A DNA stretch of 54,298 bases from Amoebophrya sp. A120. Taxonomy: Eukaryota > Protista > Dinoflagellata. The stretch's first letter is position 1. Every line of letters starts with the position of its first letter. Location of the stretch: positions 6,574,156 through 6,628,453 of the forward strand of contig CAJINV010000003.1 of the NCBI GenBank assembly GCA_905178155.1, read 5' to 3'. Positions 2,620 to 54,298 of this stretch are shown one piece after another. The notes below the pieces were generated by a model. That model worked only from the letters and a program-made list of their open reading frames with translations, made no database searches and was not told the origin of the DNA. The position numbers and the translations under genes are program-made.

Positions 2620-2802
2620 TAGGCATACTCACAGCAAAGAAAGAACGCACTTGCCTGTCATGCAAAAACGCCATTTGCCATGCGAAATACGCAACAGATA
2701 GCACCTGAAACATTTGTCATGCGCGGCTGCCCAATTCAGTACGCCCATCAATCGCAGACTTGCATTACAAATTCCCAGACCCACACATATTTGCACTGCA
2801 TA
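2620..2802. mobile_element. TIR element family A, right part only
   Basis: Ends ccagacccacacatatttgcactgcata. The left end is not seen and the left coordinate is approximate. Confidence 0.65.
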
Positions 2803-5800
2803 GATGCCAACGGTGCCCGCTTTGGGTACACCGGACCACACCGGTAAACTTCACGCTGAATGTATCGTGGGGCAAAATCCCCCCTCCCCGTATCAAAACG
2901 AAGTTGCGGATGCTGGATTTGCGTACACAAATCAGATCTCTCTTGCTCGAAAGTGCTTGGCGGCATTTTCTGAGCCTGTTTGGGTAAGCAGAAGGCTAGC
3001 AATAATTGCGCATGGCAAACCGGTTTGCAGTAGTAGTCGAAAGCGCAGGACAGACTTGCTCGGGAATGCGTCAAATGGCTGCTATTACCCTGTATGCAAG
3101 ACGAAGACGATTCTTCCCCTGTGGATATTATCGTGGGGAAAACAGGCACAAATCAGCATCACAAATTTCCGTTCCAGTGCCTGCGGAGGCTTGCCTCCTA
3201 AGCGATAATGGACAATGGCGATGTCGGTGCGGTTGTTTTAGCATCACAAATTTCCGTTTTGATATGGGGAGGGGGGACAACTTTTCATTCTGATAGAATG
3301 CCTCGCGTTATGCGCACAGGACCCCTCCTGTACGTACATGGTGCATGGACTAGGTGCCATTGCCAATGGGTTCTTCGGTGGGGAATGGTGGTATCTAACC
3401 GGCAACACGGACAAGACTGGCGACTGCTATATCCGCTCGGACGACTGGTTCGCGCAGCCGGGATTGGATCAATTTGGCAACGCTGGAATGGAAACGTCTG
3501 GCTTCACTTCCGATTACGGGACGTATGACCAGGGTTTCAACGTCCACCTGATGACTTCGGACTGCCGCGGGGACCAGTTGGGCACACTTATGCTGCACAG
3601 CAACGCGGCCAGCCTGTATTGCAAAGGGGATCCCTGCGATGCGCGGGATGTCAGCACCTGCCTGGTTTCGGGATGCGTGGTTCCGACAGACTCCACTGGG
3701 TTCACCGTCTCCGGTGGCTTCGCGGCCTTTGTTGGAAACAGCGCCAAAACGTCCCCCGGCGACACCTGGAAAACGGACTCGGACCTCACATGTGACGCCG
3801 GATACGTTGGGACCCCGGAGTACAAGTGTCACCCGTCGGGTTCGGTATCAAGAGGAAAAATCCCCCCTCCCCATATCAAAACGATGTCTCTGATGCTGGA
3901 TTTGCGTACACAAATCAGATTTGTCTTGCTGGAGAGGGCTGCAGACCCATATCAAGCCAGACTAGAGAGGCCTTGGCCTAGTCGCTTAGCATGAAAAACG
4001 TCCGGGCTGTAGGCCGAACAGCATGACAAACCGCTTGCATAATGCGGCGGAACCTGTGGAGTTGCCTTCTTGCAAGACAGACGCGATTTGTGGTCACAAA
4101 TCAGCAGCGCAAACTTTCGAGAGCGTACCTTTTCAATATGGGGAGGGGCGATTTGGATTTCTCCTCGCGATATTCGGCGTTGCAGCTTCGGGGCTGCTTG
4201 GAAAATCGAAGCGGGCGGGAACTCGAAATGGAGACTTGGAAAATCGAAATGATCCTCTATATCGACTCCGCGCAAGTTAGTACGGTGCAGCTGCCCATTA
4301 TCGAACAAAAAAAGTTCATCACGATCACTCATGCGCATTTTTGCAAGGCAAGACTTTCTGTCATGCGTAAAACTGCATCGCAGCCAAACTTCAAAAGGGA
4401 TTTCCCTAGTGATGTTTCTGCAATACAGGGAAAAAGAACTGCGATGCTAAAAAAAGCCTGCAAGTTGGTGACTGTTACCAACTTTGCTCTCTCCATACCC
4501 ATTCCGCACACGACGGACCGGGCGGCCGACTTCGTGATTATGTGGGACTCGGCGAACAATGCGGGCATTGCTCAGGTGTCGTTTTCCGCCGGGGCCCTCG
4601 ACACCGCAACCCGAGATACCTTATCCTGAGTAAAAACGTCCCCACACCAGAGTCAGGATGGGGATTTTGCAACACAAGCCTAGGAGTTTTGGGAGTCACG
4701 CATGGCAAATTGCGCTCCGCAGTGTAGTGCTGGTTAGCAAGTGCAGCCGCATCACAGATTCATCTGCTCATCCTGTTCACAGCATTACAAATACCAAAAC
4801 ACAATTGGAGATGGCTCTCATGGGGATGCGCATTACAAGTCTTCCTGTCTTTGCAAATCTGCATTACAACTCTGGTGTGGGTACGTTTTTACTCAGGATA
4901 TACCTTCTCCCACACTTATGATGCGGGCAACACCTACACCGTCAAGGTTGGAGGTACCACAGTGCCGGGTTGGGGCTATGACCTGGATACGCACACGAAC
5001 CAGAAGGTGACCGACTTCCAGCGGGCGGTGAGTGGCGTTAATCGGTTCGATATCAAATGCAAAAATGTCTGGGTCGGGAAGAATGCGAGATTTGTCATGC
5101 GTATTATATTTCTCATGACCCATGATGCCTGTAATGCATGGCCTAGCATCGCAGACTTTTAGAGGGCTTCCTGATGCACCTTCCGCATGAGAAATGCCCT
5201 CTCCGCGTAGCACAAACTGGATGGAACCCTCTTGCTGGTCATGCAATACAATTTTTTTCAGAATCCAGAGACAGCATCACTTCGGATTCTTCCAGACCCA
5301 GACATTTTTGCATTTGATATTCGAGGATCCGTGGTCGTGGAGTGGGGTGTCTTTTGCCTTCATGGGGTGCGTATGGATTGTAAAAATGTCTGGGTCTGGA
5401 AGGTTGGAACTTGTGATGCTGCATTGATTTGGAATGCAGAAGAATCTGTATTGCATGAGTACCAAAAGGAATGCAATTTTTGCTACGCGGAGAGGGCGTT
5501 TGTCATGCGGAATAGGCATCAAGAAGCTCTCAAAAGATCTGTGATGCTAGGGCATGCACCGCAGACATCAGGGCTCATGCAAAACGTGCATGACAAGTGT
5601 CGGATCTTCCAGACCCAGACATGTTTACAGTTGATAGTGCGCGAAGCTCTTTTCTTTTACAAACCTTCACGACACGAGCCATTCGGCGAACGTGATTCGA
5701 TCCCACCACACACATGCAAAGAAGATGTTTAAGGGCTGCTCCAACATGGTGACTATGAAAGTCAACAAGTTTCGGCCGACGGGCAGTACGGACTTAAGCG

Positions 5801-8800
5801 GTATGTTTCAGGACTGCACCAAGTTGAAAGCTATCGGCAACCCGGGTAGTTGGAATGTCGCCAAAGTCCGTTCCATTCACGCGATGTTCAAGAACACGCC
5901 CGCGATGCTATCAAAGTGAAAAATCCACCCACCCCATACTCAAACTAGAAATTTGTGATGCAGATTTGTGGTCACAAATCAGCTTTGTCATGCTGGAAGG
6001 GAAAAGATGCGGACTGTAGTGCTGGTTGGCGTGAGAAAGCCTTGCATCTTCAGCATGACAGGGGGCAGCTGGAAGTGGGAAACAGCATGACAAATTGCCT
6101 GCAAACGAGGCCACCGCTGCGTCTCTTGGCCTTCTAGCATTACAAGTCGATTTGTGTACTCAAATACCCCAGGGGGTTGTGGACCTGGCAAAACCGATGA
6201 GTTCGGGCTGCTGACTGTTCCACCTCCCCTAAGTGTGATCACTGCCGCCTCACGCCTCAAATACAGCATCACAAATTTCGTTTTCGATATGGGGAGGGGG
6301 GATTTTTCCTTTTGATAGATGCCGTCCTCCTGTCCCGGCGACTGCAACACCTGGGTAGGACAGTGGAACACGGCACAAATAACCGACTTTAGCGAGACCT
6401 TCGAAAACTCCGGCATTCGCCCCCTCTACCTGGACGGATGGGATACTGGCAACGCACGAACCATGGCGAAAATGTTCATGCTGACGACAAATTGTTTTTT
6501 AAATAGCTACGGTGGGCGGCATGCCGGGTGGGATGTGCGGAAGGTGACCGACTTTTCTTTCATGATGTACAAAACGAGCGGAAAGCGGTCCGGGGAACTC
6601 GGGCAGTGGCAGACGCTCTCCGCCCAAAACCTAGCGGGGATGTTTGAGGACAATGCAGTGGCGCCGGCCTGCGTGACCGATTGGTCCACAGCTAAGGTTT
6701 ATCAAATGCAAAAATGTCTGGGTCTGGAGGGTGGTAACTTGTGATGCTGTCATCTTTGGATTCTAAAAAAATCTGTCTTGCATGACTAGCAGGAGTCCAG
6801 TTTGTGCTACACGGGGAGGGCATTTCTCATGCGGAATAAGCATCAGGAAGCCTTCTAAAAATCTGGGATGCTAGGGCATGCATTACAGGCGTCATTGGTC
6901 ATGCAAAATATGCATGACAAACCTGGCAATCTTCCAGACCCAGACACTTTTGCATTCTATAAGGTTACCAGCATAGCGAAAATGTTCAAGAACGCGGTGT
7001 GCGCGACGCCAAACGTTGCCAGTTGGACCACCTCCGCGATCACCGACAGCACGGACTGGGCCACCAACGCCGGGCAGCTCGGAGGGGCCTATCAAATGCA
7101 AAAATGTCTGGGTCCGGAAAAATGCAAGATTTGTCATGCATATTTCTTATGACCCATGATTGTCTGTGATGTATGCCCTAGCATCACAGGTTTTTAGAAC
7201 CCTTCCTGATACACCTTCCGCATGAGAAAGGCCCTGTCCGTGTAGCACAAATTGTGCCCTTCTTGCTGGTCATGCAATACAAATTTTTTTAGAGTCCAAA
7301 AACAGCATGACAAGTTGCAATCTTCCAGACCCAGACACTTTTGCACTTGATAGGGCCTGCAGCGAGGCCACTCTGGACAGCGACGCGAACCACAGCATGG
7401 GTCCCAGGGTGTTTCGGGCCTCCGACGGAGAGGACGTGCTTTGCCCCAACGACGACGCGTTCCGGGTGAAGGTGAATCCGATTGTATTGGGAGGAAAAAT
7501 GATCCCCCCTCCCCATATCGGACAGGCAATTTGTGTGATGCTGGATTTGCGTAGTAAACAAATGTATTGTTAGAAGGAGGGCAAGAGACGCAGTCGTGGC
7601 CTTGTTTGCAGGCAATTTGTCATGCTGGTCCCCAAGTCCAGTTGTCTCCTGTCATGCTGAAGGTGCAATGCTTTTCCACGCCAGCCAGCACCACAGTCCG
7701 CATCTTTTCCCTTCTAGCCTGACAGCGTGACTTGTGGCCACAATTCAGCGTCACAAATATCCAGTTTGAGTACGGGGTGGAGAAATTTTTCATTTTGATA
7801 GATCGCGTCTCGGCACGATCTACCGCTGGGCTTCCAAGGATCGTCGTCCGGAGGCGCGCACCGGTTCACCGCGTGGTGGGGTGACGCAGCTGCCTCCAGC
7901 GCGCTTCAGGACCATTTGTATATCGGGTCTTCCACGAGCATTGGTTCAGGAGACAAAACCGCGGGCGCGCACACCTACGCGGCTGCGGCGACAGGGATCC
8001 AGATCACCCTCCGGGGTGACTTCCAGGGTTTCCGCAACGAACTAGGGAACAACAATATGCGAAAGTTGCGGGAGGCCATCGTGCAGGTCAACAGCCTGGG
8101 CAAGTACGGCCACCAGACTTTCGTTGCCTTGTACGCCTACACGAACAAGGTCACCACGATAGCAACGCCTGCCGCCGTTTTCAGCAAGCATGCGGGCGAG
8201 GCGACGATCATGAACAGCATGTTCAAAAATTTGCCTCTGACGGGCAATGCCCTCGACGCGGTCCTCGCGGGGTGGGATACAAGCAAAGTGGAGAACTTCA
8301 ACGAGATGTTCAGAGGCTGTAACAAGCTTACGTCGATCACCTTCCCTAATACCTGGGACACCCGTAGCGCCACCACTGTAAGCAACATGTTCAGAAGTAC
8401 TCCGAGCCTCACACAGATCTCCGGCGTCAGCACGTGGGACCTGTCCAACGCCGTGCTGCTTCGTGAGATGTTCATGGCCACGGGCCTGGGCCTTTCCAGC
8501 GGAGAAGTCGACTCCTGGAACACCGCAAAGGCCACGGACATGCGGAACATGTTTGGCGCGTCAAGCGCGAACCCTGGTGTGGGGGGCTGGAACGTCGGCT
8601 CCGTCAGAACTATGGAATCGATGTTTGCAAGCAACACTGGCTTCACCGGGTCCGGGCTCACCAACTGGGACGTGCGGAAAGTCACAAGTATGAAAGAAAT
8701 GTTCCACGGCTGCTCCAAGTGTAACCCCGACGTGTCGAAGTGGGCAACCTCTTCGCTTCAAGTCGTCAGCCAGATGTTTCAGAACACCGGCAAAGCCAAC

Positions 8801-11800
8801 CCGGATGTGCAGAACTGGCAAGTTGGGAAGGTTCAGAGCTTTTTGTCCATGTTTCAGGACGCAGCGATTGCTACCCCGAATGTCGCTGAATGGGACGTAG
8901 GTTCCGCTAACAGCTTCAAGGGCATGTTCAAAAACTGCCTAACGTGCGCTCCGTGCACAGAGAGGTTATCAACTGTAAAAATGTCTGGGTCTGGAAGATT
9001 GCGAGATTTGTCATGCAGATTTTCCATGACCCATGAGGTCTGGAATGCGAGACCCAGCATGACAGATTCTTGGAGGTCTCTATCATGCCTTTCCTGCGTG
9101 AGAAACTCCCTCTCAACTTGGTCAAAAGCGGACAGCTTTTGGCACTCACGCAAGACAGATTTTAGCATCATTCAGATTTAGCATGACAAGTTCTAATCTT
9201 CCAGACCCAGACATTTTTACATTTGATAGAGCTGGCGACCGAGCAAATTGTCGCGGATGGACGAGTTCGTGATGAGTGCCCCCTTATCATGAGCAAAAAT
9301 TCCCCCTCCCCACATCGAAAACGAAATTTGTGATGCTGATTTGTGACCACAAATCAGCTTTGTCTTGGAGTAGAGGACTGCAGGCCCATATCGTGCCGGA
9401 GTCGAGAGGTTTTGGCCTAGGCACTCAGCATGGGGAACGTCTATGCCGTAGGCCCAATAGCATTACAAACCAGCTGCATATTAATGGGGCGGAGACTGTG
9501 GCGTTGCTTTCTTGCATCACAGATGCGATTTGTGGTCACAAATCAGCATGACAAATTTTCTGAGGCGTGCCTTATCGATATGGGGAGGGGGATTTTTCCT
9601 CGCAATACCCCTGCGCGACGCCGAACATAGCGACCTGGTTTACTTCATCGACGTCATGGGATAACCTCAACATGGCCTCGTGGTCGGTCGGCGCAGCGGA
9701 CGAATCCACGTGTGGATATCAAAAGGAAAAATCCCACCTCCCCATATCGAAACGAAGTTTCTGATGCTGGATTGCAGTACACAAATTAATCAGATTTGTC
9801 TTGCAGTAGAGGACTGCAGGCATATGCCAAGCCTGAGCCGAGAGGTTTTGGCGTAGGCTCCCGGCATGAAAAATGTCGACGGTGTAGGCCCAACAGCATC
9901 ACAAGCCGCCTCAATAATGCGGTGGACTCTCTCAATTTGCTTTCTCACAAGATGACAGACAGGATTTGTGGTCGCAAATCTCGTGCTGACGTCCACCATC
10001 AGAAGTGTTCCAGCACGGGGCCGCTCCATGAGTCTGAGTCTGAATCTGACAGATCTCGAGATGCAAAAAACAAATCTGCGCGACAGATTTTGAGAACGAT
10101 GCGCTTTCAATATGGGGAGGAAGGGATTTTTCCTCACTATAGTGGACGGAGCCAGTTTGGAGCAGACGGACAGGACCTGCTGTGTCCCAATGAAGAGCCC
10201 TTTCGCGTGACTCTTTCAGTTGACTCTGGAAGCCTGGCAGTGTCAGTGCCGATTACCGGGGACTCGACAAAGTTCACCGTCTATTGGGACACTTCGACTG
10301 CCAGTGGTCTTGCTGGCGTGTACAGTGTCGTGAACCCGCAGAAAGGGGATGGACGCCACCATACGTTCGCCTCTGCCGGCACGTACAAAGTCCTGATTCG
10401 CGGCACCATCGGCGGCTGGACCGAAGCAAGCACTACGGAGGCGATGAACTGGAAGCAGAGCTTCACCGAGTTACACGGGATGGGTGCGAGCGGCGCGAAC
10501 CTGTTTGAAAATCTCTTTGAAGGAAGCTCCAAGCTGACACAGATTCCCGACGCTGCCGTGTTCAACCGATTTGCAAAAAAAACGACGTCGATGGCCAACA
10601 TGTTCAAAGGATGCAGCAAGCTTGAGGAGAGCAGCTTTACTTGCTTACATACGTGGCAGAGCAGCTGTACGAACGTTTTGGAAACGCAGTATGGCAAATT
10701 GAGGAATGTAAGCGGAATGTACCGGGGCTGCAGCTCTGCAAACGCCTTCTACTACTCTAGCGGCCTTCGCTTCGACGTCAGCAAAGTGACGGACTTCAGT
10801 TACATGTTCGATGGCTGTACTGCCGCTTCGACTATCCATGCTAACTATTTCGACGTCGGGGAGGCACGGAACATGGTCGGAATGTTTCGGAACGCAAATA
10901 AGTTCAATCCAAGCTCCTCGCTGTTTAGCGCGTGGGACGTACGCAAGGTGACCGCCATGACCGAAATGTTTCGCCTCGCCGCGAAGGCGAACCCGGATTT
11001 GGGGAGCTGGAATGTCAGAAGCGTGGTCAGCATGAATAACGTGTTTCACAGTGCGAGCAGTTTCACTGCCGCAAATCTGGGAAATTGGAACGTCGCGAAG
11101 GTGACGACCTTTTTGAGCATGTTCGACGAAGCAACGAGTGCGAACTTATCAAGTGCAAATATGTCTGGGAGGATCTGAGTCTGTCGTGCACATTGTACAT
11201 GACCCCCGATCATGTTGCGGCCTGTGATGCATGCTCTAGCATCACAGCGTTCCGCCCAAAGGTTTGCTGCTGCCTATCCTGCATGAGAAATGCCCTCTCG
11301 CCCGGGTGGAAACAATCTGAGTGGCTTTCGCCTTTCATCATGCAATACCGATGTGTGATCGACGAAAGGCACCATGCATCACAAATCCCATTCTTTCGAG
11401 ACCCAGACATATTTGCAATGCTGCATAGAGTATCAAATGCAAATATGTCTGGGTCTGGAAGAGTGCATGTTTGTCATGCTTTTCTGGCATGACACTTCAA
11501 TCTGTCATGCACGTTAATCAAGAGCCCCATTTTGGTGCTGTCACGCAAAAACGCAGTTTGTCATGCAGAGTAGGCAACACCTAGAAGCTCAAAAGCTTGT
11601 CATGCTGAGCCAGCACCTGTGGCCTCTTCATGATACGCCACCCAGCATCACAAGTTTCCAGATCCAGACATTTTTACAATCCATATAGAGCCCTATCGTG
11701 AGTGACTGGAATGTCGGATCCGCCGTAACGTTAAAAAAGATGTTCCGTGCGTGCACCTATGCATGGCAAATATCTACCCTGGATGTCTGGTGGAACATGG

Positions 11801-44800: not shown

Positions 44801-47800
44801 ACCGGATGTTTCACTTCGCCTCGGCGCTTACGACGATGGATGTCTCTATGTGGGACACGGCAGCTGTGACAAGTTTTGTGGAGCTGTTCCGCAGCGCGGA
44901 CAAATTGCAAACGATCATCGGACTCCAGAACTGGCAAATCGGGGCGGCGAAAGACTTGCAGGGCATGTTCCAGGAGGCGGAGACGCTCCAGATGACGACC
45001 GCGCTGCAGGACTGGGACCTGGGAAAGGTAACCACGGTTGCTTCCATGTTTGCGGGCGCAAAGAAGGTGACCCCGCAAACGGCGAAGTGGCACGTCGGGA
45101 ACGTTCGCTCCTTCGTCCAGATGTGGATGCGCGCGAGCAGCGCGAATCCCGAGGTCGCGGCTTGGAACGTCGGCGCGGGCACCGATTTTTCCGAGATGTT
45201 CTCCACGACGGGCACGGCGGATCCCGATGTGAAGGTGTGGGACACGGGGTCCGGGCGTGACTTTTACCGCATGTTCCACGACGCGGCCGCAGCGAACCCG
45301 AGGGTGGAAGACTGGGACGTGCGCAAGGTGACCTCGATGCAGGGCATGTTTCAGGGCACGACCGTTGCCGATCCCAATGTTACCTTTTGGGACGTTATCA
45401 ACTGTAAAAATGTCTGGGTCTGGAAGAGTGCATGTCTGTCATGCTTGTCTGGCATGACGCTCAAATCTGTCATGCACGTTACCCAAGAGCGCCACTTTTC
45501 TGTCATGCAGAAACGCAGTTTGTCATGCAGAATAGAGAACACCTAGAAGCTCAGAAACAAACTTGTCATGCTGAGCCAGTACTTGTGGCCTCCTCATGAT
45601 ACGCCAGCCAGCATCACAAGTTTCCAGACCCAGACATTTTTGCATTTGATAGACGTGCGGTCGCTGGAGAACGCGATGGAGCTCTTTCTCGACGCGCAAA
45701 TCGCCAAGCCGTGCGTGACTACGTGGAACACAACCCTGCTCCGCTACTTGAACCGCACCTTCCAGAACGCCGTTTGTGCGACGCCGAACCTGGCCTACTG
45801 GAGCGTTGACAACCTGCAAGGGGCCGCGGACTGGGCCAGCAACTCTGGCGTGCTGACCGCTTGCCAAGCGAACACGCAGCCGTGGGAACCGTTCGACGGA
45901 CGCGACACGTGGTGCCCGGGAGACGACCCCTTCCGGGTAGAAATCCAGGTCACGACCGCGCCGCTCGAGGTCCAGCTTCCGCTAACAAACAACGGGTCAA
46001 GTGCGCAGTTCACGGTGCATTGGGGCGAGGCAAACCGGGCGTACCACGAACTCGGTGACCTTGTGTGGAGTGACTATCACGGAATAAACCAGCCACGTGC
46101 GCGCAACGCGAAGCACACCTACCAATCCACCGGCACCTACCAAGTGGTGCTCCGCGGCAAACTGCAACCCTGGGCGAACCTGTACGAAAATGACACTGCA
46201 GTGACGGGGGACCACTTTGTACCGATCGACGCGGGTGCGGGTGCCACTTCCAGCTTCTTCGGCAACGGTGATGCAGTGCGAAACCTGAAAAAAAGCTACA
46301 AAGACCTGAAGTGCCTGGGGCAGGACGGGGAGTTGCTTTTTCGGTGTTTGTTTCAGGACAGCACCAACCTGATCCAGCTGCCAAAATACGGCGTTTTTTA
46401 CAAGTACTGGGCCAAAGTGAGAACCATGAACGGCATGTTTGAAAACGCGAACAGCCTTCCGCAAGTGAATGCGAGCACCTGGTCCGTTTCTACGATCACA
46501 AACTTCCGGTCACTTTTCCGGTACGCGAGCAGCTTGACCAGAATCGACGGGCTGCAGCACTTATCCTGTGCAAAAGTATCGTACTCGTATTAATCGCAGT
46601 CATGCATTACGAATCTTCACCCCAAGGCAAAACAGCATGACAAATTCCATTTGTAATGCTGAGCTAATTTGTATTGCAATTACTACTAGTACGATCCTTT
46701 TGCAGTTCATAGCACTTCGACGTCTCGCAGGTGACCGACTTTTCGGAGGCCTTTCGTCGGACCACCCGGTTGCCGCTGGACGACGCGGGAGAGCCGGGCT
46801 CGGTCGGCTTCAAAGACTGGCAAATGCAGTATGCATTGCAAATATGTCCTCTGCTGGGTCTGGAAGGGTGCGATGAACTTGTGGTGCATGTTGCGGATCA
46901 TACAAAAATCTGTGTTGCGTGACTTGCAAAAGGTGCTCACTTCTGGCCATGCTGAGAGATGAGCATTTCTCATGCAGAACAGGCATCAACACAAAGGGGC
47001 TGCGGATCCTGTGATGCTAGGCCCTGCATTTTTCCAGACTTGGCGGAGCTTGGAAATAAAACTGCATGACAAATCTCAGACATATTTGCATTTGATACGC
47101 AGAAGGCGACAACCATTTCCGGCATGTTTCGATCAGCGGAATCCGGGACGCCGGACGTCAGCATCTGGGAGGTCCACAACGTCCGTGACTTCTCCCGCAC
47201 CTTCCAAACGCTGACCGAGGGGGCGACGCTGAACGTGACCAACTGGAACGTTGCCCGGGGCACCACGTTTGACTTCATGTTCGCCGACAACGTCCTGACC
47301 GACCCGGACGTGCAATTTTGGGACATGTCCAGCGCGAGGACCGCAAAGTCCATGTTTGACAACGCGACGAACGCCGAGCCGAATGTGACGCTGTGGGACG
47401 TGCGTAACTTGGAGGTCATGGAGAACCTGTTCAAGGACGCGCACGTTGCAAAGCCCTGCACGACCTTCTGGCAGCCCAGTGCTGCAACGGATTTTCGAGG
47501 CCTTTTTCACAACGCCTACTGCGCCACGCCGAACGTGAACTACTGGGGTATCGACAGCGCCCGGCTGTTCGAGACCAAAGTCGACTCGGAAAACAGTACA
47601 CAGCGCTGGGCGCTGAACGCCGGCATCGCCCATTTGTGCACGAGGCCGGGCTTTCGCGAGACCAGTAGTTACCGAAATTTTGACAGCAACAACCCGAATG
47701 GCATCGACCTGACCTGCCTCGACGATGACCCCTTCCGCGTGGACATCGAAATCACGGAGCCGAACACGCGGATACGAATTCCCGTCGTCGACTATCGTGA

Positions 47801-50800
47801 CGAAAAATCCCCCCTACCCATATCGAAAACGAAATTTGTGATGCTGTATTTGAGTACACAAATCGACTTGCATTGCTAGAATGGAACAAAGAGGCGCAGT
47901 TGTGGCCTCGTTTGCAGGCAATTTGTCATGCTGTTTCCCACTTCCAGCTGCCTCCTGTCATGCTGAAGATGCAAGGCTTTCCCACGCAGCCCAGCACTAC
48001 AGTCCTTCGCATCTTTTCCCTTCTAGCATGACAAAGCTGATTTCTGGCCACAAATCTGCATACACAGATTTCCGCTTTGATACAGGGCGGAGGCTTTTTT
48101 CTCTTTGATATGGACGCCAACTATACGATATACTACTCAGACCTGCATTCCGAGCCCGACCCGCTGTGGGAGGACCGCGTGTGGAACACCTACCATAGCG
48201 CGGACACTGCAGACGCAAGCGAGAGCGCCGTGTACAGCAGCTACGATGCGGCAGCGACTAACAGCAGCGTGGCGCAGCAGCTCCCATACGCGGACCAGTA
48301 TCGGCAGCACTGGTTCGTGGACGCTGGTCACCTGCCGAAGGCAAACAGGCACCTCTTTACGCAGACGGGACAATACTCGATTGTGATTCGTGGGGACCTG
48401 CGGTGGCTGGGGGATTTGCTCGAGCTCGAGAAGTTTTTGTCCAACGACACGAGCCCCCGAAGCGGGGGTGCAGCAGCTGCCTCAAGAAGCACCACCACGC
48501 CGAGTAATGCGGCCTTGCTGCAAGTTCGCGAGGAGTACCTGAACTTCAAGCGATCCATATTACAATGAAAAATGCCCTCACCCCCGAACTTGGGAGCATT
48601 TGTATTGTAAACCTTTCCAAATGAAACACTCGCCCGCTTGCATCTATCAGCATCACAGGTTTCCGATCGTGAATAGCTGCAAAAATTTGTATTGCAAAAG
48701 ACCCCAGCAAGAGCGGCGCTTGTCATGCAAGCGATGCGATACACGCCTCGACTCTGCATCAGAAAGATTCATACTCCTTTCATGCATGACAAAAAGTTTC
48801 CATTTGGAAACTTCGCATCACAAATTTTTGCAATTTCATGGGTGGGGGGAACTTTTCACTGTAGTAATCCATCCGGGCGCTGAAGTCGCTCGGCAAGCAT
48901 GGGTCGACGCTGCTGCCAAACTTGTTCCAGGAGGCTGCTTTCTTGCAAACGCTTCCCGTACCCGCCGTGTTTGACAGGCACTGGGAGAACGCTACGAACC
49001 TCCGCAACTTCTTGCAGGGTGCAGCGTCGCTGCAAGCCGCGGACGTGCAGACCTGGGATACGAAGAAGGTGACGACCATGGAGAACCTGTTTGACCGGGC
49101 GGTCACCCTCGAGAATGTGACCGGGTTGGAGCAGTGGGATGTTTCCCAGGTGACCAACCTCGCGTCCCTGTTCCAGGACACGCCGATGCTTCAGTCGTTC
49201 CCCTTTGGGGTCGACGAGGCCCACGTCGACCCTAGTAGTAGTTCGGCGCGCGCCCCGGACGACGCATTTGGCGGGTGGGACATCCGCAAGGTCACAACGT
49301 TGTCAGCGATGTTTCGCAACAGCTCGCTGACCAGACCAAATGTTGCGGCGTGGGACCTCGTCAGCGTACGAAACCTATCTCACATGTTTGACAACGCGCG
49401 CACGGCCACTCCCGACGTGCGGACCTGGAACCTACACAAAGTCACAACCGTCGCTTACACTTTTCGCGGCGCCGCGGCCGCCAATCCCGACGTGAAAGTC
49501 TGGAACGTGGGCAAGGTGACCTCGTTATCAAAAGGAAAAATCCCCCCTCCGCATATCGAAAACTAAATTTGTGATGCTGTATTTGAGTACACAAATCGAC
49601 TTGCATTGCTAGAAGGCCCAGAGACGCAGTCGTGGCCTCGTTTGTAGGCAATTTGCCATGCTGTTTCCCACTTCCACCTGCCTCCTGTCATGCTGTAGCT
49701 GCAAGGCTTTTTCCACGCCCTACAGCACTACAGTCCGCACTTTTTCGCTTCTAGCATGACAAAATGATTTGTGTACACAAATCCCGCATCACAGAGCTCC
49801 ATTTTGATATGGGGAGGGGGGATTTTTCATTTTGATACTCGTTCGAGGGAGTCTTCGCGGACACCGACGTGGCGATCCCCGACATTCTATCCCATATAAA
49901 AACGTCCCCACACCATAGGCAAGATGTGAAATCTGCAACACAAATCTCCAAGTTTTGGGAGTTCTGCATGACAAGTTGTTTCCTGTGCAGTTTAGTCCTG
50001 GCTAGCAAGGAAAGCCGCGCAAAAAAGCCATTTTCTTATCCTGTTAACAGCATTACAAATGCCAAAACACGACTGGAAATGCCTCTCATGGAGATGCGCA
50101 CTACATGTGTTGCTGTCGTTGCGCATTTGCATGACATCAACCATCGGGCCGTTTGCACAGGGGGAGGCAAAGTGTGCCGCGCTTCTGTTTAGCATGACAA
50201 CTTCTATGGGGCGGGGACGTTTTTCCACAGGATGCGTTCGGGACTGGGACGTGACGCAGGCGGAGACGATGCGGGCCATGTTCCAGCGCGCGCGCCGTGC
50301 CTCTCCCTGCATCACGAAGTGGCAGATCTCGCTCAAGCTGCGCGACATCGCCTTCATGTTCAACGAGGCGTACTGCGCGACGCCAAACGTGGAGTGGTGG
50401 ATGGACAAGTGGCTGTACTACTGGACCAACGAGTACAGTCCGATCAAGCTGAACGAGGAGCAATTCGCGCGCGACGCCGGGCTGCTCGGGAGGTGCGAGC
50501 GGCCGCCGGAATCGATGTTCGACGCGGACAAGGGGCTGTATGGCGCTCTCAACTGTTACATCCTCAACTGTTACATGAATTTGTCATGCAAAAACAGCAA
50601 TAGGGAAAGGGGAAAGCTTGCAAGTCTTGCATCACAAATTTAGCACGGATTAAGATGCTGTTTTGCCCTTCGATAATTTGTCATGCGAAGCAGCTTGATC
50701 GTCTTGCGGCTCATGGTCATGCTGCATGACAAATCATGTAACAGTTGAGAATGTAACGTTTGAGAGCCCCATAGGCTGGACCTCACCTGTCCCGACGACG

Positions 50801-53481
50801 ACCCCTTCCGACTCGCGCTGAACCTGCGGGAGCCCGGGCAAACGACGGTGCGGCTCCCCTTCGACCTGTTCAGCCAGGAAAACCGCGTCACGGTCTACTG
50901 GGGCGAGGAGGGGTCCAAGGAGCAGGACCGGTTCGAGGACGTGGTGGCGAGCTCGAATTTTATCTCGCAGATGTCGGTGAAGGCGTACGACTGGTTTGAC
51001 CAAGCGCGCGGCACGGCGGCCCCGGGGGCGGCGCCCGTGGAGATGCCGGCCGCGACCAACACCTCCCAGCTGTTTCGGCTCCGCGGACACGTGCACACCT
51101 ACCAAGCACCCGGGAACTACACGGTCACCATCCGGGGGAAGATCGACCCCTGGTCCCACGAGCCGCCACCCTATCTGAACATGACCTACAACGCGACGGA
51201 CGCCGATGAGGAGGGCCACGTGGTTTACAACCAACTGGATGCCGGCCTGGTCTCGTCCCCCGCCGTGTTCGATTCGAAGGCCGCGATTGCCAAGCCTATC
51301 AACCAGCAGATCAAGAACTACAAGGCGGCCATGTCCACGATCAGCAGCATGGGCAAGTACGGCTCGTTGTTGCTCCCAAACCTGCTGCGCGACTGCGTCA
51401 ACCTGGAGCGGCTGCCGCTGGCGGGGCTGTTCGGCGACGCACTGAAGAACCCCCTGCTGCGGTCGATGAAGGGCATGTTCGCGGGCGCGCGCCGCCTGGT
51501 GCTGGTGAACGGTACCGGTTGGGACGTGTCCCGAATCACCGACTTTTCCTCCATGTTCGAGGATTGCATCGTGCTGGAGAAAGTTCTTGGCCTGGACAAG
51601 TGGGTCGTATCCGGCGGCGTTCGAAATGTGTCGCACGCGTTCGCAAAAACGAAGGTACGGTTTGAGCCGGGGTCTAGCGAAGATCTGAAGCATTGGTTCA
51701 CCCCGATCAACGAGGATGAGCAGCAGGCCGCTTCGGCTTCTTCGTTGCGGCGGGGACGGCAGCTATCGACGTCCAGCATACGACGGCTGAGCACCGGCGT
51801 AGACAATCTGCAAGGCATGTTTTACCAGGCCCCCTTCGCCAACCCGAACACGACCTTGTGGCAGACGCAGTTCGTGACGGACTTCTCGCTTCTCTTCGAC
51901 TTTGCCGTCTCCGCGCAGCCGGACACTGCGCTCTGGGACACGGGCCAGGGGCGGACGTTTGCGAACATGTTTTCCCACACCGCCTATCAAATGTAAAAAT
52001 GTCTGGGTCTGGAAGAATGCAACTGGTCATGCTAAATCTGAAACATGCAAAAATCTGTGTTGCGTGATTACCAAAAGTCGCCTAGTTTTGACCAAGTCGG
52101 AAGGGAGTTTCTCATGCAGGATAGGCATGAGAGAGATCGCGCAGAATCTGTCATGCTAAGTCCTGCATTCCAGGCCTGATGGGTCATGGAAAAGCTGCAT
52201 GACAAGTCGCGCATTCTTCCAGACCCAGACATTTTTGCATTTGATACCGCCAAAGTCAACCCGGACACGAAAAACTGGAACACGGAGTCTGCGACGTATC
52301 AAATGTAAAAATGTCTGGGTCTGGAAGATCAAGATTGCCAGGCTTGTCATGCACATTTTGCATGACTCCTGATGTCTGTGATGCATGCCCTAGCGTCACA
52401 GATTTTGTGAGGGCCTCCTGATGCCTATACCGCATGACAAATGCTCTTTCCGTGTAGCAAAACTTGGACTCTCTCTGCTGCTCATGCAATACAGATTTTT
52501 TCAAATTCCAAAATCAGCATCACAAGTTGGATTCTTCCAGAGGACGCAGACATTTTTACAGTTGATACGACGTCCTTCCAAGCCATGTTCCAAGACAGCA
52601 CCAACGCCGACCCGCAGGTGTTCCACTGGAAGTGCAGCAAGCTGCGGGACGCGTCCTTCATGTTTGACGGGGCGGTCCGGGCCAACCCCTGCGTGTCCTT
52701 CTGGGACACCAGGAGTGTGACCGACATGAAGCACATGTTTCGGAACGCGTACTGTGCGACGCCCAATCTGAATGACTGGAACCACGACCAAGATACCGCG
52801 ACGAGCACCCGAGTGTTCGAGAACACTGGGACGCTGGGGTCGCGGTGCAGCTACTACGACGTGGATAACGCAGTGGTCAGTAATGCGCATGCACAGGCCT
52901 CCCTGTTGCAGTACTACGCGCGACCGTTGGCCGCGGACTTCGCGGAACACCATTCCTGGTCGGACAAGCGGGAGTACTGGCAGTTCTTCAACCGGAGTCA
53001 GATGACGGACCCGCAGTGCGGAAAAGCCGACGACGCCATTCGGCTGACGGTGCAAATTACGAGCGCCCCCACCACAGTCCGCCTGCCCCTGAAGTACGAC
53101 AAGTCGATCAACGGCTACACCCTGTATTGGGACGAGGACTGGAACAGCGGCGCCGCCTGGCGGCGGAAGGACCCCCAGTATCTGGATGGGGCTGGGAACG
53201 ACAACAACGCGGCGCACACCTACAACGCCGTCGGCTTTTACACGATCGTGGTCCGCGGGGACCTAACCTCCTGGCACTTGTTCCACGACGCCGAATATGA
53301 ACTGCAAAAGTATCGTACTCGTATAAATGCATTTACAAATTTTCTCAGCATGAGAAATGAAATTTGTAATGCTGATTTGCCTTGACAAAGAAATTTGTAA
53401 TGCAAGACCTGCATTTATACGAGTACGATACTTTTGCACAGCATACCGAAGCGGACGCGAACGCGAATAACTACCCGAACC
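2803..53481 (+). CDS. Giant split gene (partial at both ends): PKD-like + DUF285/BspA-like repeat surface protein with PAN/apple-, discoidin- and LamG-like inserts; about 56 coding blocks, about 8,900 aa visible
   Basis: Joining the blocks between TIR elements and keeping one 5-bp repeat gives a continuous frame, e.g. HAEC|LALC, RF|EDPW, PAK|VTD, TQF|GSN, VYW|GEG, DPF|RLV, KV|TSM. A recurrent module is CPDDDPFR..LP..TVxWGDG..HTY..GxYxVxIRG..NWK..LG..LF..(W[DN]VxKVxxMxxMF)n..PC..W..CATPN. Domain names come from motif recognition, not from a search. Confidence 0.9.
2863..3295. mobile_element. TIR intron-like element, family B
   Basis: TSD gaatg/gaatg; tatc...aaaatcccccctcccc and ggggagggggga...gata. 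Confidence 0.9.
3296..3845 (+). CDS. Coding block, Cys-rich (PAN/apple-like start ECLALCAQDPSC)
   Basis: Core of ORF 3338-3994, bounded by elements. Confidence 0.8.
3846..4172. mobile_element. TIR element, family B
   Basis: TSD ttcgg/ttcgg. Confidence 0.9.
4299..4497. mobile_element. Degenerate TIR element (family F-like), in frame and stop-free
   Basis: TSD cccat/cccat; tatcgaacaaaaaaagtt ... aactttgctctctccata. Confidence 0.7.
4622..4900. mobile_element. TIR element, family C
   Basis: TSD tacct/tacct; tatcctgagtaaaaacgtccccacaccagag and ctctggtgtgggtacgtttttactcaggata. Confidence 0.95.
5051..5319. mobile_element. TIR element, family A
   Basis: TSD ttcga/ttcga; tatcaaatgcaaaaatgtctgggtc and gacccagacatttttgcatttgata. 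Confidence 0.95.
5372..5636. mobile_element. TIR element, family A
   Basis: TSD gtgcg/gtgcg. Confidence 0.9.
5909..6317. mobile_element. TIR element, family B, with nested insert 6168-6255
   Basis: TSD gatgc/gatgc. Confidence 0.9.
6700..6961. mobile_element. TIR element, family A
   Basis: TSD aggtt/aggtt. Confidence 0.9.
7090..7352. mobile_element. TIR element, family A
   Basis: TSD gggcc/gggcc. Confidence 0.9.
7485..7800. mobile_element. TIR element, family B
   Basis: TSD gattg/gatcg. Confidence 0.85.
7801..8966 (+). CDS. Coding block: PKD-like + DUF285-like repeats
   Basis: Core of ORF 7916-9181: WWGD..HTY, WDTSKVENFNEMF repeats. Confidence 0.9.
8967..9228. mobile_element. TIR element, family A
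   Basis: TSD gaggt/gagct. Confidence 0.9.
9284..9607. mobile_element. TIR element, family B (1-nt frame irregularity)
   Basis: TSD cccct/cccct. Confidence 0.85.
9717..10141. mobile_element. TIR element, family B, with nested insert 9982-10070
   Basis: TSD gtgga/gtgga. Confidence 0.9.
10142..11146 (+). CDS. Coding block: PKD-like + DUF285-like repeats
   Basis: Core of ORF 9796-11178. Confidence 0.9.
11147..11427. mobile_element. TIR element, family A (right junction hit by the next element)
   Basis: TSD gaact/gagcc after removing 11431-11685. Confidence 0.8.
11431..11685. mobile_element. TIR element, family A, inserted on the right end of the previous element
   Basis: TSD tagag/tagag (11426-11430, 11686-11690). 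Confidence 0.85.
11758..12063. mobile_element. TIR element, family A
   Basis: TSD gcacc/ccacc; ends gatg. Confidence 0.8.
12111..12324. mobile_element. TIR element, family F
   Basis: TSD cgaag/cgaag; tatcgaagaaaaaactgtttcactgtaa and ttacagtggaacagttttttcttacgata. Confidence 0.9.
12433..12738. mobile_element. TIR element, family B
   Basis: TSD ggact/ggact. Confidence 0.9.
12790..14318. mobile_element. TIR element, family A, expanded by nested insertion 12944-14204
   Basis: TSD cagtt/cagtt. Confidence 0.9.
12944..14204 (+). mobile_element. Nested retroelement-like insertion with two ~315-bp direct repeats ending in (CTA)n
   Basis: Repeats at about 12946-13260 and 13894-14204; agcgta on both flanks; each repeat contains a 35-bp tandem dimer. 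Confidence 0.7.
14465..14774. mobile_element. TIR element, family B
   Basis: TSD tactg/tactg. Confidence 0.9.
14949..16601. mobile_element. TIR element, family D, expanded by about 1.4 kb of foreign DNA
   Basis: TSD actgg/actgg; ends match element 50539-50773. Confidence 0.85.
16772..17041. mobile_element. TIR element, family A (diverged)
   Basis: TSD gcgcg/gtgcg. Confidence 0.8.
17099..17412. mobile_element. TIR element, family C
   Basis: TSD gccgt/gccgt; ends gatg. Confidence 0.85.
17539..17806. mobile_element. TIR element, family A
   Basis: TSD atgcg/ctgcg. Confidence 0.9.
17889..18461. mobile_element. TIR element, family B, spanning an N-gap and a nested insert
   Basis: TSD taccg/taccg. 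Confidence 0.85.
18009..18272. other. Assembly gap
   Basis: Run of N. Confidence 1.
18578..18899. mobile_element. TIR element, family B
   Basis: TSD caagg/caagg. Confidence 0.9.
18971..19641. mobile_element. TIR element, family C, host of a nested element
   Basis: TSD cgaga/cgaga; ends ggacg. Confidence 0.85.
19309..19631. mobile_element. TIR element, family B, nested in the right TIR of 18971-19641
   Basis: TSD tctca/cctca. Confidence 0.85.
20037..20290. mobile_element. TIR element, family A
   Basis: TSD ttccg/taccg. Confidence 0.9.
20557..20856. mobile_element. TIR element, family A
   Basis: TSD cttcc/cttcc. Confidence 0.9.
20915..21199. mobile_element. TIR element, family C
   Basis: TSD ccagt/ccagt. 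Confidence 0.9.
21587..21913. mobile_element. TIR element, family B
   Basis: TSD actag/actag. Confidence 0.9.
21971..22237. mobile_element. TIR element, family A
   Basis: TSD aaagt/aaagt; ends gaca. Confidence 0.85.
22238..26752 (+). CDS. Largest uninterrupted coding block: about 2.5 PKD/DUF285 modules plus an acidic linker
   Basis: ORF 22226-26755 (1509 aa). Confidence 0.95.
26753..27094. mobile_element. TIR element, family A
   Basis: TSD cgggt/cgggt; tagg...catg variant ends. Confidence 0.85.
27138..27448. mobile_element. TIR element, family A
   Basis: TSD tgccg/tgccg. Confidence 0.9.
27678..27998. mobile_element. TIR element, family B
   Basis: TSD cgtga/cgtga. Confidence 0.9.
27999..29122 (+). 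CDS. Coding block: PAN/apple-like Cys domains and start of a discoidin-like domain
   Basis: ECRYLCAMTEKCVQF..CTLL, DCRYLCAETPQCSSF..CTLY; WHELEF..VTG..HSLD|GSSW. Confidence 0.8.
29123..29633. mobile_element. TIR element, family A, with (GAT)n-tailed insert
   Basis: TSD ggacg/gaatg. Confidence 0.8.
29634..30782 (+). CDS. Coding block: poly-Thr linker and PAN/apple-like domains
   Basis: ORF 29656-30828. Confidence 0.85.
30783..31170. mobile_element. TIR element, family B, with nested insert 30842-30904
   Basis: TSD ccggg/ccggg; ends gatc. Confidence 0.85.
31171..31750 (+). CDS. Coding block: PAN/apple-like + discoidin-like
   Basis: ECRYLCAETPECGGF; WWEAEFRD..ITG. Confidence 0.8.
31751..32073. 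mobile_element. TIR element, family B
   Basis: TSD gacct/gccct; starts catc. Confidence 0.8.
32074..32716 (+). CDS. Coding block: return to DUF285-like repeats
   Basis: Core of ORF 32093-32890. Confidence 0.85.
32717..33032. mobile_element. TIR element, family B (diverged)
   Basis: TSD atttt/atttt. Confidence 0.85.
33033..33523 (+). CDS. Coding block: DUF285-like repeats
   Basis: Core of ORF 32960-33535. Confidence 0.85.
33524..33572. mobile_element. TIR element, family C, left end only (runs into gap)
   Basis: tatcctaagtaaaaacgtccccacccc. Confidence 0.85.
33573..33672. other. Assembly gap (100 N, true size unknown)
   Basis: Run of N. Confidence 1.
33751..35709 (+). mobile_element. Non-LTR retrotransposon ORF2, C-terminal part: RT thumb region, RNase H, Zn knuckle
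   Basis: LGFLFD and LKAILNLPKTAP..SGLL (RT end/thumb); RNase H motifs ICTDGS, ECFAL, YLDPNS, WVPGHAGLYFNDAAD; CKFC..H..C. Confidence 0.85.
37380..37450. mobile_element. TIR element right end (family F-like)
   Basis: tgtgatgctgtttttttcttggata directly before coding resumes; left coordinate approximate. Confidence 0.6.
37451..38912 (+). CDS. Coding block: one full PKD/DUF285 module
   Basis: Core of ORF 37387-38943. Confidence 0.9.
38913..39194. mobile_element. TIR element, family C
   Basis: TSD atcga/atcga. Confidence 0.9.
39195..40245 (+). CDS. Coding block: PKD-like domain with inserted LamG/ConA-like domain
   Basis: LADGNYHTYRVEVNSNQITATVDG between YWGE and RHTY. Confidence 0.8.
40246..40684. 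mobile_element. TIR element, family A, with (CCAA)n-tailed insert 40470-40641
   Basis: TSD agtga/agtga. Confidence 0.9.
40738..41013. mobile_element. TIR element, family C
   Basis: TSD gatca/gatca. Confidence 0.9.
41377..41788. mobile_element. TIR element, family C, with duplicated (ATG)n insert
   Basis: TSD cggtt/cggct. Confidence 0.9.
42030..42356. mobile_element. TIR element, family B
   Basis: TSD catgt/catgt. Confidence 0.9.
42357..45395 (+). CDS. Coding block: two closely related PKD/DUF285 modules, the second with an RRLL linker and Cys domain insert
   Basis: Core of ORF 42280-45546. Confidence 0.95.
45396..45651. mobile_element. TIR element, family A
   Basis: TSD gacgt/gacgt. Confidence 0.9.
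45652..46561 (+). CDS. Coding block: PKD/DUF285 module
   Basis: Core of ORF 45568-46593. Confidence 0.9.
46562..46711. mobile_element. TIR element, family E (150 bp)
   Basis: TSD gcact/gcact; tatcctgtgcaaaagtatcgtact and agtacgatccttttgcagttcata. Confidence 0.9.
46830..47097. mobile_element. TIR element, family A
   Basis: TSD tgcag/cgcag. Confidence 0.85.
47098..47792 (+). CDS. Coding block: DUF285-like repeats
   Basis: Core of ORF 47124-47879. Confidence 0.9.
47793..48110. mobile_element. TIR element, family B
   Basis: TSD tcgac/tggac. Confidence 0.85.
48558..48866. mobile_element. TIR element, family B-like (diverged)
   Basis: TSD atcca/atcca; tattacaatgaaaa and ttttcactgtagta. Confidence 0.85.
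48867..49525 (+). CDS. Coding block: DUF285-like repeats
   Basis: Core of ORF 48922-49566. Confidence 0.9.
49526..49837. mobile_element. TIR element, family B
   Basis: TSD ctcgt/ctcgt. Confidence 0.9.
49888..50234. mobile_element. TIR element, family C
   Basis: TSD cattc/cgttc; ends gatg. Confidence 0.85.
50539..50773. mobile_element. TIR element, family D
   Basis: TSD ggctg/ggctg; tatggcgctctcaactgttacat and atgtaacgtttgagagccccata. Confidence 0.9.
50774..51984 (+). CDS. Coding block: PKD/DUF285 module
   Basis: Core of ORF 50848-51996. Confidence 0.9.
51985..52246. mobile_element. TIR element, family A
   Basis: TSD ccgcc/ccgcc. Confidence 0.9.
52297..52567. mobile_element. TIR element, family A
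   Basis: TSD cgacg/cgacg. Confidence 0.9.
52568..53295 (+). CDS. Coding block: end of DUF285 repeats + PKD-like domain
   Basis: Core of ORF 52441-53385. Confidence 0.9.
53296..53445. mobile_element. TIR element, family E (150 bp)
   Basis: TSD ccgaa/ccgaa; tgcaaaagtatcgtactcgtataaatgca inverted at the right end. Confidence 0.95.
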
Positions 53482-54245: not shown

Positions 54246-54298
54246 CGAGGCTTCCGGGCTTCGAGGCTTCCGGGCTTCGAGGCTTCCGGGCTTCGAGG
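54246..54298. repeat. 16-bp tandem repeat cgaggcttccgggctt x3+
   Basis: Direct reading; runs off the window end. Confidence 0.9.

What the first reader, a model, noticed from the sequence alone, without database searches (positions are those of the whole stretch)
2803..53481. About 60 MITE-like TIR elements act as the only introns of one intact giant gene (non-GT-AG introner system)
Seen: every interruption of the frame has the form [5-bp repeat]-TAT..TIR..TIR..ATA-[same 5 bp]. My count is 56 complete and 4 partial elements in six TIR families (A 23, B 21, C 9, D 2, E 2, F 3). The 5-bp repeats have no consensus and the ends give no consistent GT/AG. Removing element plus one repeat restores the protein, and I saw no stop codon in about 26.6 kb of joined coding sequence, while the elements themselves have diverged and collected insertions. 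Inference: the gene is under selection and the elements are removed precisely, by non-canonical splicing or by programmed DNA excision. Known context: introners with inverted and direct repeats were reported in Amoebophrya (Farhat et al. 2021), and structure-defined non-conventional introns occur in euglenids. I know of no established removal mechanism, nor an autonomous transposase, for this TAT..ATA/5-bp-TSD type.
Basis: partly seen in the sequence, partly recalled or inferred. Interest (0 to 1): 0.95.

Follow-up and report, generated by a model that had tools for sequence, protein, structure and literature searches.

The report
Amoebophrya introners in giant surface gene
Sixty small inverted-repeat elements, most flanked by a 5-base duplication, interrupt a giant gene for a predicted surface protein whose reading frame is open once they are taken out; they match the already published odd introns of the marine parasite Amoebophrya A120 and are likely cut out of the RNA by a machine nobody has yet identified.

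Summary
Observation confirmed: 56 complete and 4 partial TIR elements in six families, with an exact 5-bp direct repeat in 42 of 56 (0.06 by chance). Removing each element plus 5 nt leaves 26,614 coding nt with no stop, where 15 or more were simulated for a dead gene. Two corrections: the gene is open at both window ends, and it is broken by an assembly gap (33573-33672) that hides at least one exon.

It is not new. The ends fit the published Amoebrophrya A120 introner motif (TAT, 7 nt, AAA; 52 of 56 elements), 5-bp repeats are in that paper's supplement, and the only relatives found for the PAN-like exon are A120 proteins. Removal is likely at RNA level, set by the element ends: both orientations occur, GT-AG cannot explain it, and DNA contigs keep the elements. 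No RNA run covered this gene. Mismatched repeats put the cut after base 3 or 4 of the upstream copy (weak). Two nested elements likely need ordered removal. This scan noted the same system on other pieces of this genome. Verdict: already known, mechanism open.

The parts
2803..33523 (+). Gene, first half: 39 exons, 15,277 coding nt, 5,092 codons without a stop; DUF285 (BspA-like) repeat blocks with PKD-like domains and a Cys-rich PAN-like region; true start not in view
37451..53481 (+). Gene, second half: 17 exons, 11,337 coding nt, 3,778 codons without a stop; same repeat units, one laminin-G-like stretch; end not in view
33573..33672 (.). Assembly gap of 100 N between a family C left end (33524) and a family F right end (37450); at least one exon is likely hidden in it
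2650..2802 (.). Partial family A element (right end only)
2863..3295 (.). Family B element
3846..4172 (.). Family B element
4299..4497 (.). Family F element; bridged whole by a contig at single-copy depth
4622..4900 (.). Family C element
5051..5319 (.). Family A element; folds into a closed hairpin, z = -9.3
5372..5636 (.). Family A element, opposite orientation
5909..6317 (.). Family B element
6700..6961 (.). Family A element
7090..7352 (.). Family A element
7485..7800 (.). Family B element, repeat mismatch at base 4 (silent)
8967..9228 (.). Family A element, repeat mismatch at base 4
9285..9607 (.). Family B element
9717..10141 (.). Family B element
11147..11427 (.). Family A host element whose last 2 bases and downstream repeat were the target of the next element; repeat mismatches at bases 3 and 5 (most informative junction for the cut)
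11431..11685 (.). Nested family A element with its own 5-bp repeat
11758..12063 (.). Family A element, repeat mismatch at base 1
12111..12324 (.). Family F element
12433..12738 (.). Family B element
12790..14318 (.). Family A element with a 1.3-kb insert bounded by ~330-bp direct repeats (87% alike)
14465..14774 (.). Family B element
14949..16601 (.). Family D element with a long insert; the internal repeat of the gene (71% alike as DNA) lacks an element at this place
16772..17041 (.). Family A element; bridged whole by a contig at single-copy depth
17099..17412 (.). Family C element
17539..17806 (.). Family A element, repeat mismatch at base 1
17889..18461 (.). Family B element containing the N run 18009-18272
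18578..18899 (.). Family B element
18971..19641 (.). Family C host element whose right inverted repeat is split by the next element
19309..19631 (.). Nested family B element
20037..20290 (.). Family A element, repeat mismatch at base 2
20557..20856 (.). Family A element
20915..21199 (.). Family C element
21587..21913 (.). Family B element
21971..22237 (.). Family A element
26753..27094 (.). Family A element; bridged whole by a contig of run X4
27138..27448 (.). Family A element
27678..27998 (.). Family B element
29123..29633 (.). Family A element with insert, repeat mismatches at bases 2 and 4; bridged whole by a contig of run X3
30783..31170 (.). Family B element
31751..32073 (.). Family B element, repeat mismatch at base 2
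32717..33032 (.). Family B-type ends (did not cluster by blastn)
33524..33572 (.). Partial family C element (left end, runs into the gap)
33673..37450 (.). Non-coding for this gene: holds a 672-codon non-LTR retroelement fragment (33691-35709, RNase H-like) and ends in a family F right end
38913..39194 (.). Family C element
40246..40684 (.). Family A element with insert
40738..41013 (.). Family C element
41377..41788 (.). Family C element, repeat mismatch at base 4 (second informative junction)
42030..42356 (.). Family B element
45396..45651 (.). Family A element
46562..46711 (.). Family E element
46830..47097 (.). Family A element, repeat mismatch at base 1
47793..48110 (.). Family B element, repeat mismatch at base 2 (silent)
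48558..48866 (.). Family B-type ends (did not cluster by blastn)
49526..49837 (.). Family B element
49888..50234 (.). Family C element, repeat mismatch at base 2
50539..50773 (.). Family D element
51985..52246 (.). Family A element
52297..52567 (.). Family A element
53296..53445 (.). Family E element, opposite orientation to 46562
53482..54298 (.). Partial family B element (left end only; runs off the window)

Best explanation
These are copies of the published Amoebophrya A120-type introner elements, short inverted-repeat transposons that duplicated 5 bases on insertion, and they are likely removed from the pre-mRNA together with exactly 5 flanking bases by a machine that reads the element's own ends instead of GT-AG. 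Shown here: anatomy, families, both orientations, exact +5 restoration of the protein, selection on the frame, persistence in DNA contigs. From the literature: RNA-seq support for removal of this class in A120. Inferred: because the ends are inverted repeats, either orientation presents the same signals (TAT..AAA at the 5' end, TTT..ATA at the 3' end) and brings the cut sites together in a hairpin; both cuts fall inside the duplicated 5 bases, likely after base 3 or 4 of the upstream copy, so one full copy is rebuilt and any coding position is a harmless target. I put a modified, U1-independent spliceosome at about 55%, a non-spliceosomal nuclease and ligase at about 30%. The mobilising enzyme is not in this window. 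The gene likely encodes a giant DUF285/BspA-repeat surface protein.
For: Motif TAT-N7-AAA at 47 of 56 left ends, 41 of 56 right ends, at least one end in 52 of 56, the definition given for A120 families in PMC7789003; its Fig. S19 legend names 5-bp direct repeats. The PAN-like exon has 2 hits among 2,463 candidates, both Amoebophrya sp. A120 (39-40% identity); the two best relatives of the retroelement ORF are A120 too. The joined protein aligns to these paralogues across several junctions. Orientation 13/9, 11/7, 4/4, 1/1 in four families. 50 of 52 elements up to 450 nt fold with their ends paired. GT..AG or GC..AG that gives the same product exists in 3 of 54; a stop-free GT..AG within 20 nt that keeps the protein length in 9 of 54. 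Zero stops against simulated 26.5. Same families in another assembly: 283 elements, 207 with an exact 5-bp repeat, 1 at 4 bp, 0 at 6 bp. Farhat et al.: 66,565 RNA-seq-supported introns in A120, 65% non-canonical, U1 snRNA not detected, other spliceosome parts present.
Against: No transcript of this gene was seen, so removal here rests on the open frame and on the class. No sign of selection on RNA pairing: G-U 66 versus A-C 75 among end mismatches, and positions 5-10 pair in only 209 of 324 cases. The T excess at repeat base 5 in the window (p = 0.005 uncorrected, 16 tests) did not replicate in 116 framed elements of the other assembly (p = 0.37). The cut position rests mainly on 2 of 10 informative junctions: internal repeats favour 4 upstream bases kept, bacterial relatives favour 3 by 2 log units. 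Nothing here separates a spliceosome from a nuclease and ligase. Species assignment is by motif and protein relatives, not by an identical annotated record.
Confidence: 0.82

Rival explanations
1. Removal is at RNA level but without a spliceosome: a structure-specific nuclease cuts at the base of the hairpin and a ligase joins the exons, as proposed for euglenid nonconventional introns, which leave full-length circles.
For: No GT-AG, both orientations, strong terminal hairpins; U1 snRNA not detected in A25 or A120; euglenid parallel described in PMC11282704.
Against: No G-U bias that would show selection on pairing; A120 keeps nearly all spliceosomal proteins and 35% GT-AG introns, and tunicate transposon-derived non-canonical introns are reported as spliceosomal (passage).
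Confidence: 0.3
2. The elements are cut out of the DNA in a programmed way in some life stage, as in ciliate internal eliminated sequences.
For: Transposon-like ends and target duplications; precise restoration; either orientation works.
Against: Contigs of run X1 span whole elements with both flanks at depth 42.5 and 42.9, equal to exon-only bins (42.8-45.7); X3 and X4 contigs span two more; no empty-site joint among the 15 of 1,706 and 15 of 22 joints shown. These runs are one sample, perhaps the source of the assembly, and contigs drop rare forms. Farhat et al. define the junctions from RNA-seq against DNA. A separate germline nucleus is not known in this lineage (recalled).
Confidence: 0.05
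3. An ordinary spliceosome uses cryptic GT-AG sites near the element ends.
For: A stop-free, frame-keeping GT..AG pair lies within 20 nt of the ends in 43 of 54 elements.
Against: Only 9 of 54 keep the protein length; spacing against element-free repeats is best at exactly element + 5 in 26 of 37 scoreable junctions and all 20 strong ones; 11 of 54 have no usable pair.
Confidence: 0.03
4. The gene is dead and the elements are plain MITE insertions that are never removed.
For: A gap interrupts the model; start and end are not in the window.
Against: 0 stops in 8,870 codons, while even 0.5% neutral change gave at least 1 stop in 100 of 100 simulations and 2.9% gave at least 15; the elements themselves differ from their nearest relatives by up to 30% and carry long inserts.
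Confidence: 0.03

Closest known systems
Introner elements / non-canonical introns of Amoebophrya sp. A120 (Farhat et al. 2021, PMC7789003; seen: abstract, passages, sections 10, 12, 16, supplement legends and Tables S4-S7; figures not visible)
   Same: Inverted repeats starting TAT + 7 nt + AAA, 5-bp direct repeats at the exon borders, no consistent splice dinucleotides, about 240-310 nt, many families, genes with non-canonical introns only, no transposase inside.
   Different: None of kind. Here every complete repeat is 5 bp (paper: 3-5 nt), density is 2.0 per kb of coding sequence (paper: 1.42 genome-wide), and two nested copies are resolved. The paper leaves the exact cut unknown.
A120 introner families of Gozashti et al. 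2025 (PMC12130899; seen: section 6, passages, 21 of 58 A120 rows of one dataset)
   Same: TIR DNA-transposon introners of 150-340 bp, tens of introns in one gene, mixed splice dinucleotides.
   Different: Their automated repeat calls run 2-5 bp; family 38 carries an integrase-like ORF, which no element here does. I did not match my families to theirs by sequence.
Nonconventional introns of euglenids (review PMC11282704; passages seen)
   Same: Hairpin-joined ends, TSD-like repeats, likely MITE origin, unknown removal mechanism.
   Different: Euglenid ends follow a pyrimidine|purine consensus with CAG/CTG pairing and give circular RNA; these have TAT..ATA ends and a fixed 5-bp repeat. Circles not tested.
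Introners of Aureococcus and Micromonas (as summarised in PMC7789003 section 16)
   Same: Non-autonomous TIR elements with direct repeats that become introns.
   Different: Those use canonical splice motifs; these do not.
Bacterial BspA-family (DUF285 + PKD) giant surface proteins
   Same: DUF285 E = 1e-184 on one exon; 237 proteins of 2,632-5,000 aa hit at about 23-36% identity.
   Different: Here in a eukaryote, joined to a PAN-like Cys-rich region found only in A120 paralogues.

Membership tests
Amoebophrya A120 introner elements | Inverted repeats at both ends, starting TAT, 7 variable bases, then at least three A | tested here: met
   52 of 56 elements at one end or both; 47 left, 41 right; the 4 misses include both family D copies
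Amoebophrya A120 introner elements | 3-5 nt direct repeat at the exon/intron borders | tested here: met
   exact 5 bp in 42 of 56, 1-2 mismatches in 14
Amoebophrya A120 introner elements | Repeated, in families, across the genome | tested here: met
   six families in the window; about 550 matching stretches estimated in the metagenome collection, the 164 loci fetched all from one assembly; far higher summed contig depth over elements than exons
Amoebophrya A120 introner elements | No consistent GT-AG ends | tested here: met
   product-preserving GT/GC..AG in 3 of 54
Amoebophrya A120 introner elements | Ends can pair into a hairpin | tested here: met
   50 of 52 folded elements; z = -9.3 for one
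Amoebophrya A120 introner elements | Absent from mRNA (RNA-seq-supported junction) | tested here: inconclusive
   five RNA or likely-RNA runs laid; none covered the exons
Amoebophrya A120 introner elements | Host is A120 or a close relative | tested here: met
   closest protein relatives named Amoebophrya sp. A120; no identical annotated record seen
Canonical (U2, GT-AG) introners | GT..AG carried or co-opted from the target duplication | tested here: not met
Autonomous TIR transposon | Transposase ORF between the inverted repeats | tested here: not met
   no ORF with a transposase match seen in the inserts listed; the one long ORF is related to RT/endonuclease proteins. Only that ORF and the 356-1060 ORF were scanned against Pfam.
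Euglenid-type nonconventional introns | Excised as full-length circular RNA | not testable with these tools
   needs RNase R-treated RNA reads
Ciliate-type eliminated DNA | Element absent from somatic DNA | tested here: not met
   four elements bridged whole by contigs, two at single-copy depth; one sample only

The most novel reading that the evidence does not exclude
Amoebophrya A120 splices these introns by a ruler rule with no splice-site letters at all: the cut falls one base before the 5' inverted repeat and four bases after the 3' one, whatever the bases and whichever way round the element lies, and nested copies are removed inside-out like twintrons. That would be a third route of nuclear intron removal, or a spliceosome that has swapped U1 and GT-AG for transposon-end recognition.
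Probability: 0.45. Interest if true: 0.75.

Novelty: already known. Interest (0 to 1): 0.3.

Why it matters
The element class, its end motif, its 5-bp repeat and its high density per gene are in print, so the finding adds no new kind of system. It stays of some use because the removal mechanism is open: one gene offers 54 junctions in six families and both orientations, 13 with mismatched repeats that let cDNA reveal the exact cut, and two nested pairs that test the order of removal. If the cut is fixed by the element ends alone, it explains how a transposon can fill coding sequence at no cost to the protein.

Tried and rejected
RNA test: no RNA holder was listed for 22240-31700. Raw RNA runs X5-X7 laid on 2700-18000 had reads only on element sequence with foreign flanks, none on exons; likely-RNA contigs X8 and X9 on 18300-33560 also lay almost only on elements. 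This is no evidence for or against expression.

No whole genome is held, so a genome-wide search for long copies with a transposase could not be run. Viral contigs: 0 exact matches to the family A end. None of the 164 loci of the other assembly overlaps this gene, so no orthologue, dN/dS or empty allele. dN/dS between internal repeats is saturated (pS 0.58-0.72) and not used. No annotated protein identical to this gene came up in three searches covering 652-2,000, 826-2,631 and 2,632-5,000 aa; longer models were out of reach.

Rejected signals: G-U over A-C bias; T excess at repeat base 5 (not replicated); 5' end better kept than 3' end (52 vs 46 of 54 in the window, 111 vs 109 of 116 in the other assembly). 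A phase bias (26/16/12, p = 0.056; 59/30/27, p = 0.0003) fits a phase-0 intron under a 1+4 cut but also a weak target preference, so it is not used. The 33691-35709 ORF was considered as the missing transposase and rejected: its full-length relatives carry RVT_1 and endonuclease domains. No fold or complex job was sent, as none bears on the claim.
Full report
Observation. A scan for inverted ends with flanking repeats and curation gave 54 outer interruptions with both ends, 2 nested elements and 4 lone ends: 56 complete and 4 partial. Median length is 310 nt. The 5-bp repeat is exact in 42 of 56; permuted flanks give 0.06. It has no consensus.

The frame. Removing each element plus 5 nt gives 5,092 and 3,778 codons with no stop on either side of the 33524-37450 interruption. 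Other offsets give 43-60 stops, except +2 and +8, which keep the frame. Spacing against element-free repeats and two paralogues picks +5 in 26 of 37 scoreable junctions and in all 20 strong ones; 16 of 53 were too weak to score. One internal repeat, 71% alike as DNA, has no element where 14949 sits, as expected of a true target duplication. The repeat mismatches (16 in 280 positions) imply about 2.9% change per copy if all were neutral; that much change gave a mean of 26.5 stops and never fewer than 15 in 100 simulations. So the frame has been kept with the elements in place. Two limits: the 33524-37450 interruption holds a 100-N gap, has ends of two families and unmatched flanks, and a part of a repeat unit is missing, so at least one exon is unseen; and the gene's start and end lie outside the window.

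The protein. Exons hit DUF285 (E = 1e-184), with weak PKD, PAN_4 and Laminin_G_2 matches. Long bacterial BspA-family proteins share the DUF285 + PKD layout at about 23-36% identity. The PAN-like exon has two relatives among 2,463 candidates, both named Amoebophrya sp. A120, and the joined protein aligns to them across junctions. A surface or adhesion role is an inference from these families. A search for Amoebophrya with BspA or DUF285 found no paper.

What the elements are. Farhat et al. 2021 (PMC7789003; abstract, passages, sections 10, 12, 16, supplement text seen; figures not visible) define A120 introner families by inverted repeats starting TAT, seven variable bases, then at least three A, with 3-5 nt direct repeats; the Fig. 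S19 legend shows 5-bp repeats. The motif fits 52 of 56 elements at one end or both. They count 66,565 RNA-seq-supported introns, 65% non-canonical, 29,850 introners, no U1 snRNA and no transposase in A120, and leave the cut position unknown; genes with non-canonical introns only are one of their three classes. Gozashti et al. 2025 (PMC12130899; section 6, passages, 21 of 58 A120 dataset rows seen; files 13-14 not searched) report tens of such introns in one A120 gene and a TIR family with an integrase-like ORF. PMC12005148 (passages) says the elements are confined to part of the genus; PMC11453091 (passages) repeats the 2021 figures. Roy et al. 2023 was seen only as a reference. Five searches found no paper that settles the removal mechanism or the cut; figures I could not see (Fig. 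3, S21-S25) may bear on the cut.

Independent set. The family A end matched 166 stretches in the metagenome collection; all 164 loci fetched come from one other assembly. They hold 283 paired elements, 207 with an exact 5-bp repeat, 241 with at most one mismatch, 1 with 4 bp and none with 6. 55 of the 56 window elements have a relative there at 68-98% identity. Viral contigs gave none.

How they are removed. DNA: contigs of X1 span two whole elements at depth 42.5 and 42.9, like exon-only bins (42.8-45.7), and X3 and X4 span two more; no empty-site joint is among the joints shown (15 of 1,706; 15 of 22). These runs are one sample of unrecorded kind, read as DNA because they cross exon-element borders, and may be the assembly's source. 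Cryptic canonical sites: 3 of 54 elements have a GT/GC..AG that gives the same product; 9 of 54 have a stop-free GT..AG within 20 nt that keeps the length, although 43 of 54 have some frame-keeping pair. Both orientations occur (13/9, 11/7, 4/4, 1/1), so internal oriented signals are not needed, while inverted ends give the same signals either way. 50 of 52 elements fold with paired ends, but G-U and A-C mismatches are balanced (66 vs 75), so selection on pairing is not shown. The most likely mechanism is RNA-level removal keyed to the ends; whether by a changed spliceosome (about 55%) or a nuclease and ligase as proposed for euglenids (about 30%; PMC11282704 passages) is inference only.

The cut. 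In 13 outer elements the two repeat copies differ, 10 in a way that changes the protein. Junction 11147 needs 3 or 4 upstream bases kept to give the conserved Asn-Pro; 41377 needs 4 or 5 to give the usual Phe. Summed over junctions, internal repeats rank 4 first (deficit 2.6; 3: 4.5; 5: 10.6); 120 bacterial relatives rank 3 first (5.1; 4: 7.1; 5: 9.1; 0-1: about 15), junction 8967 pulling against 4. So the cut likely lies late in the upstream copy; 1+4 is compatible, not proven here. Under it the 5' ends read GT 19, TT 18, AT 9, CT 7, TC 1 and the 3' ends anything. I had this reading before the scan's notes showed that other agents propose the same 1+4 rule on other pieces of this genome, some from transcript contigs that I could not check.

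Nested copies. 11431-11685 sits in the last 2 bases and downstream repeat of 11147-11427; removing both in one step from the inner right end would shift the frame by 2, so ordered removal is likely. 19309-19631 splits the right inverted repeat of 18971.

Mobiliser. None in the window. The long ORF at 33691-35709 has an RNase H-like part, and its full-length relatives carry RVT_1 or endonuclease domains: a non-LTR retroelement fragment. A scan note names an 11.4-kb candidate elsewhere in the genome; untested here.

Verdict. Real, well supported, and already known as a class with these exact ends and repeats. The open mechanism and the test value of the locus justify interest 0.3.

Noticed in passing
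window 11147-11692 and 18971-19641: Two elements landed in the 3' end of older elements, giving twintron-like pairs; the first cannot be removed in one step without a frameshift.
   Followed up: partly
window 33691-35709: 672-codon non-LTR retroelement fragment (RNase H-like, Cys-rich end) inside an intron; best relatives are A120 proteins at 67% and 48%, one with RVT_1.
   Followed up: yes
window 12938-14222: A 1.3-kb insert in a family A element, bounded by ~330-bp direct repeats 87% alike, like a small non-coding LTR element; part of the repeat recurs in L152.
   Followed up: partly
window 356-1060: ORF with a CCCH zinc finger (E = 8e-7) upstream of the first exon, perhaps part of a mobile insert in the partial element ending at 2802; 1457-1572 is repeated exactly at 1846-1961.
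   Followed up: partly
window 2803-53481: The DUF285 + PKD repeat layout matches giant bacterial BspA-family proteins, which hints at a bacterial origin of the repeats; no tree was built.
   Followed up: no
runs X5, X6, X7 laid on window 2700-18000: Each 2026 RNA run is dominated by reads of one different element copy with flanks foreign to this window (about 200-400 reads each) and has none on exons; unexplained.
   Followed up: no
window and L001-L164: Insertion phase is biased: the 5-bp repeat is most often centred on a codon (26 of 54; 59 of 116).
   Followed up: partly
window 26160-26700: A low-complexity, charged linker of about 150 codons separates the DUF285 blocks from the two Cys-rich PAN-like units.
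   Followed up: no
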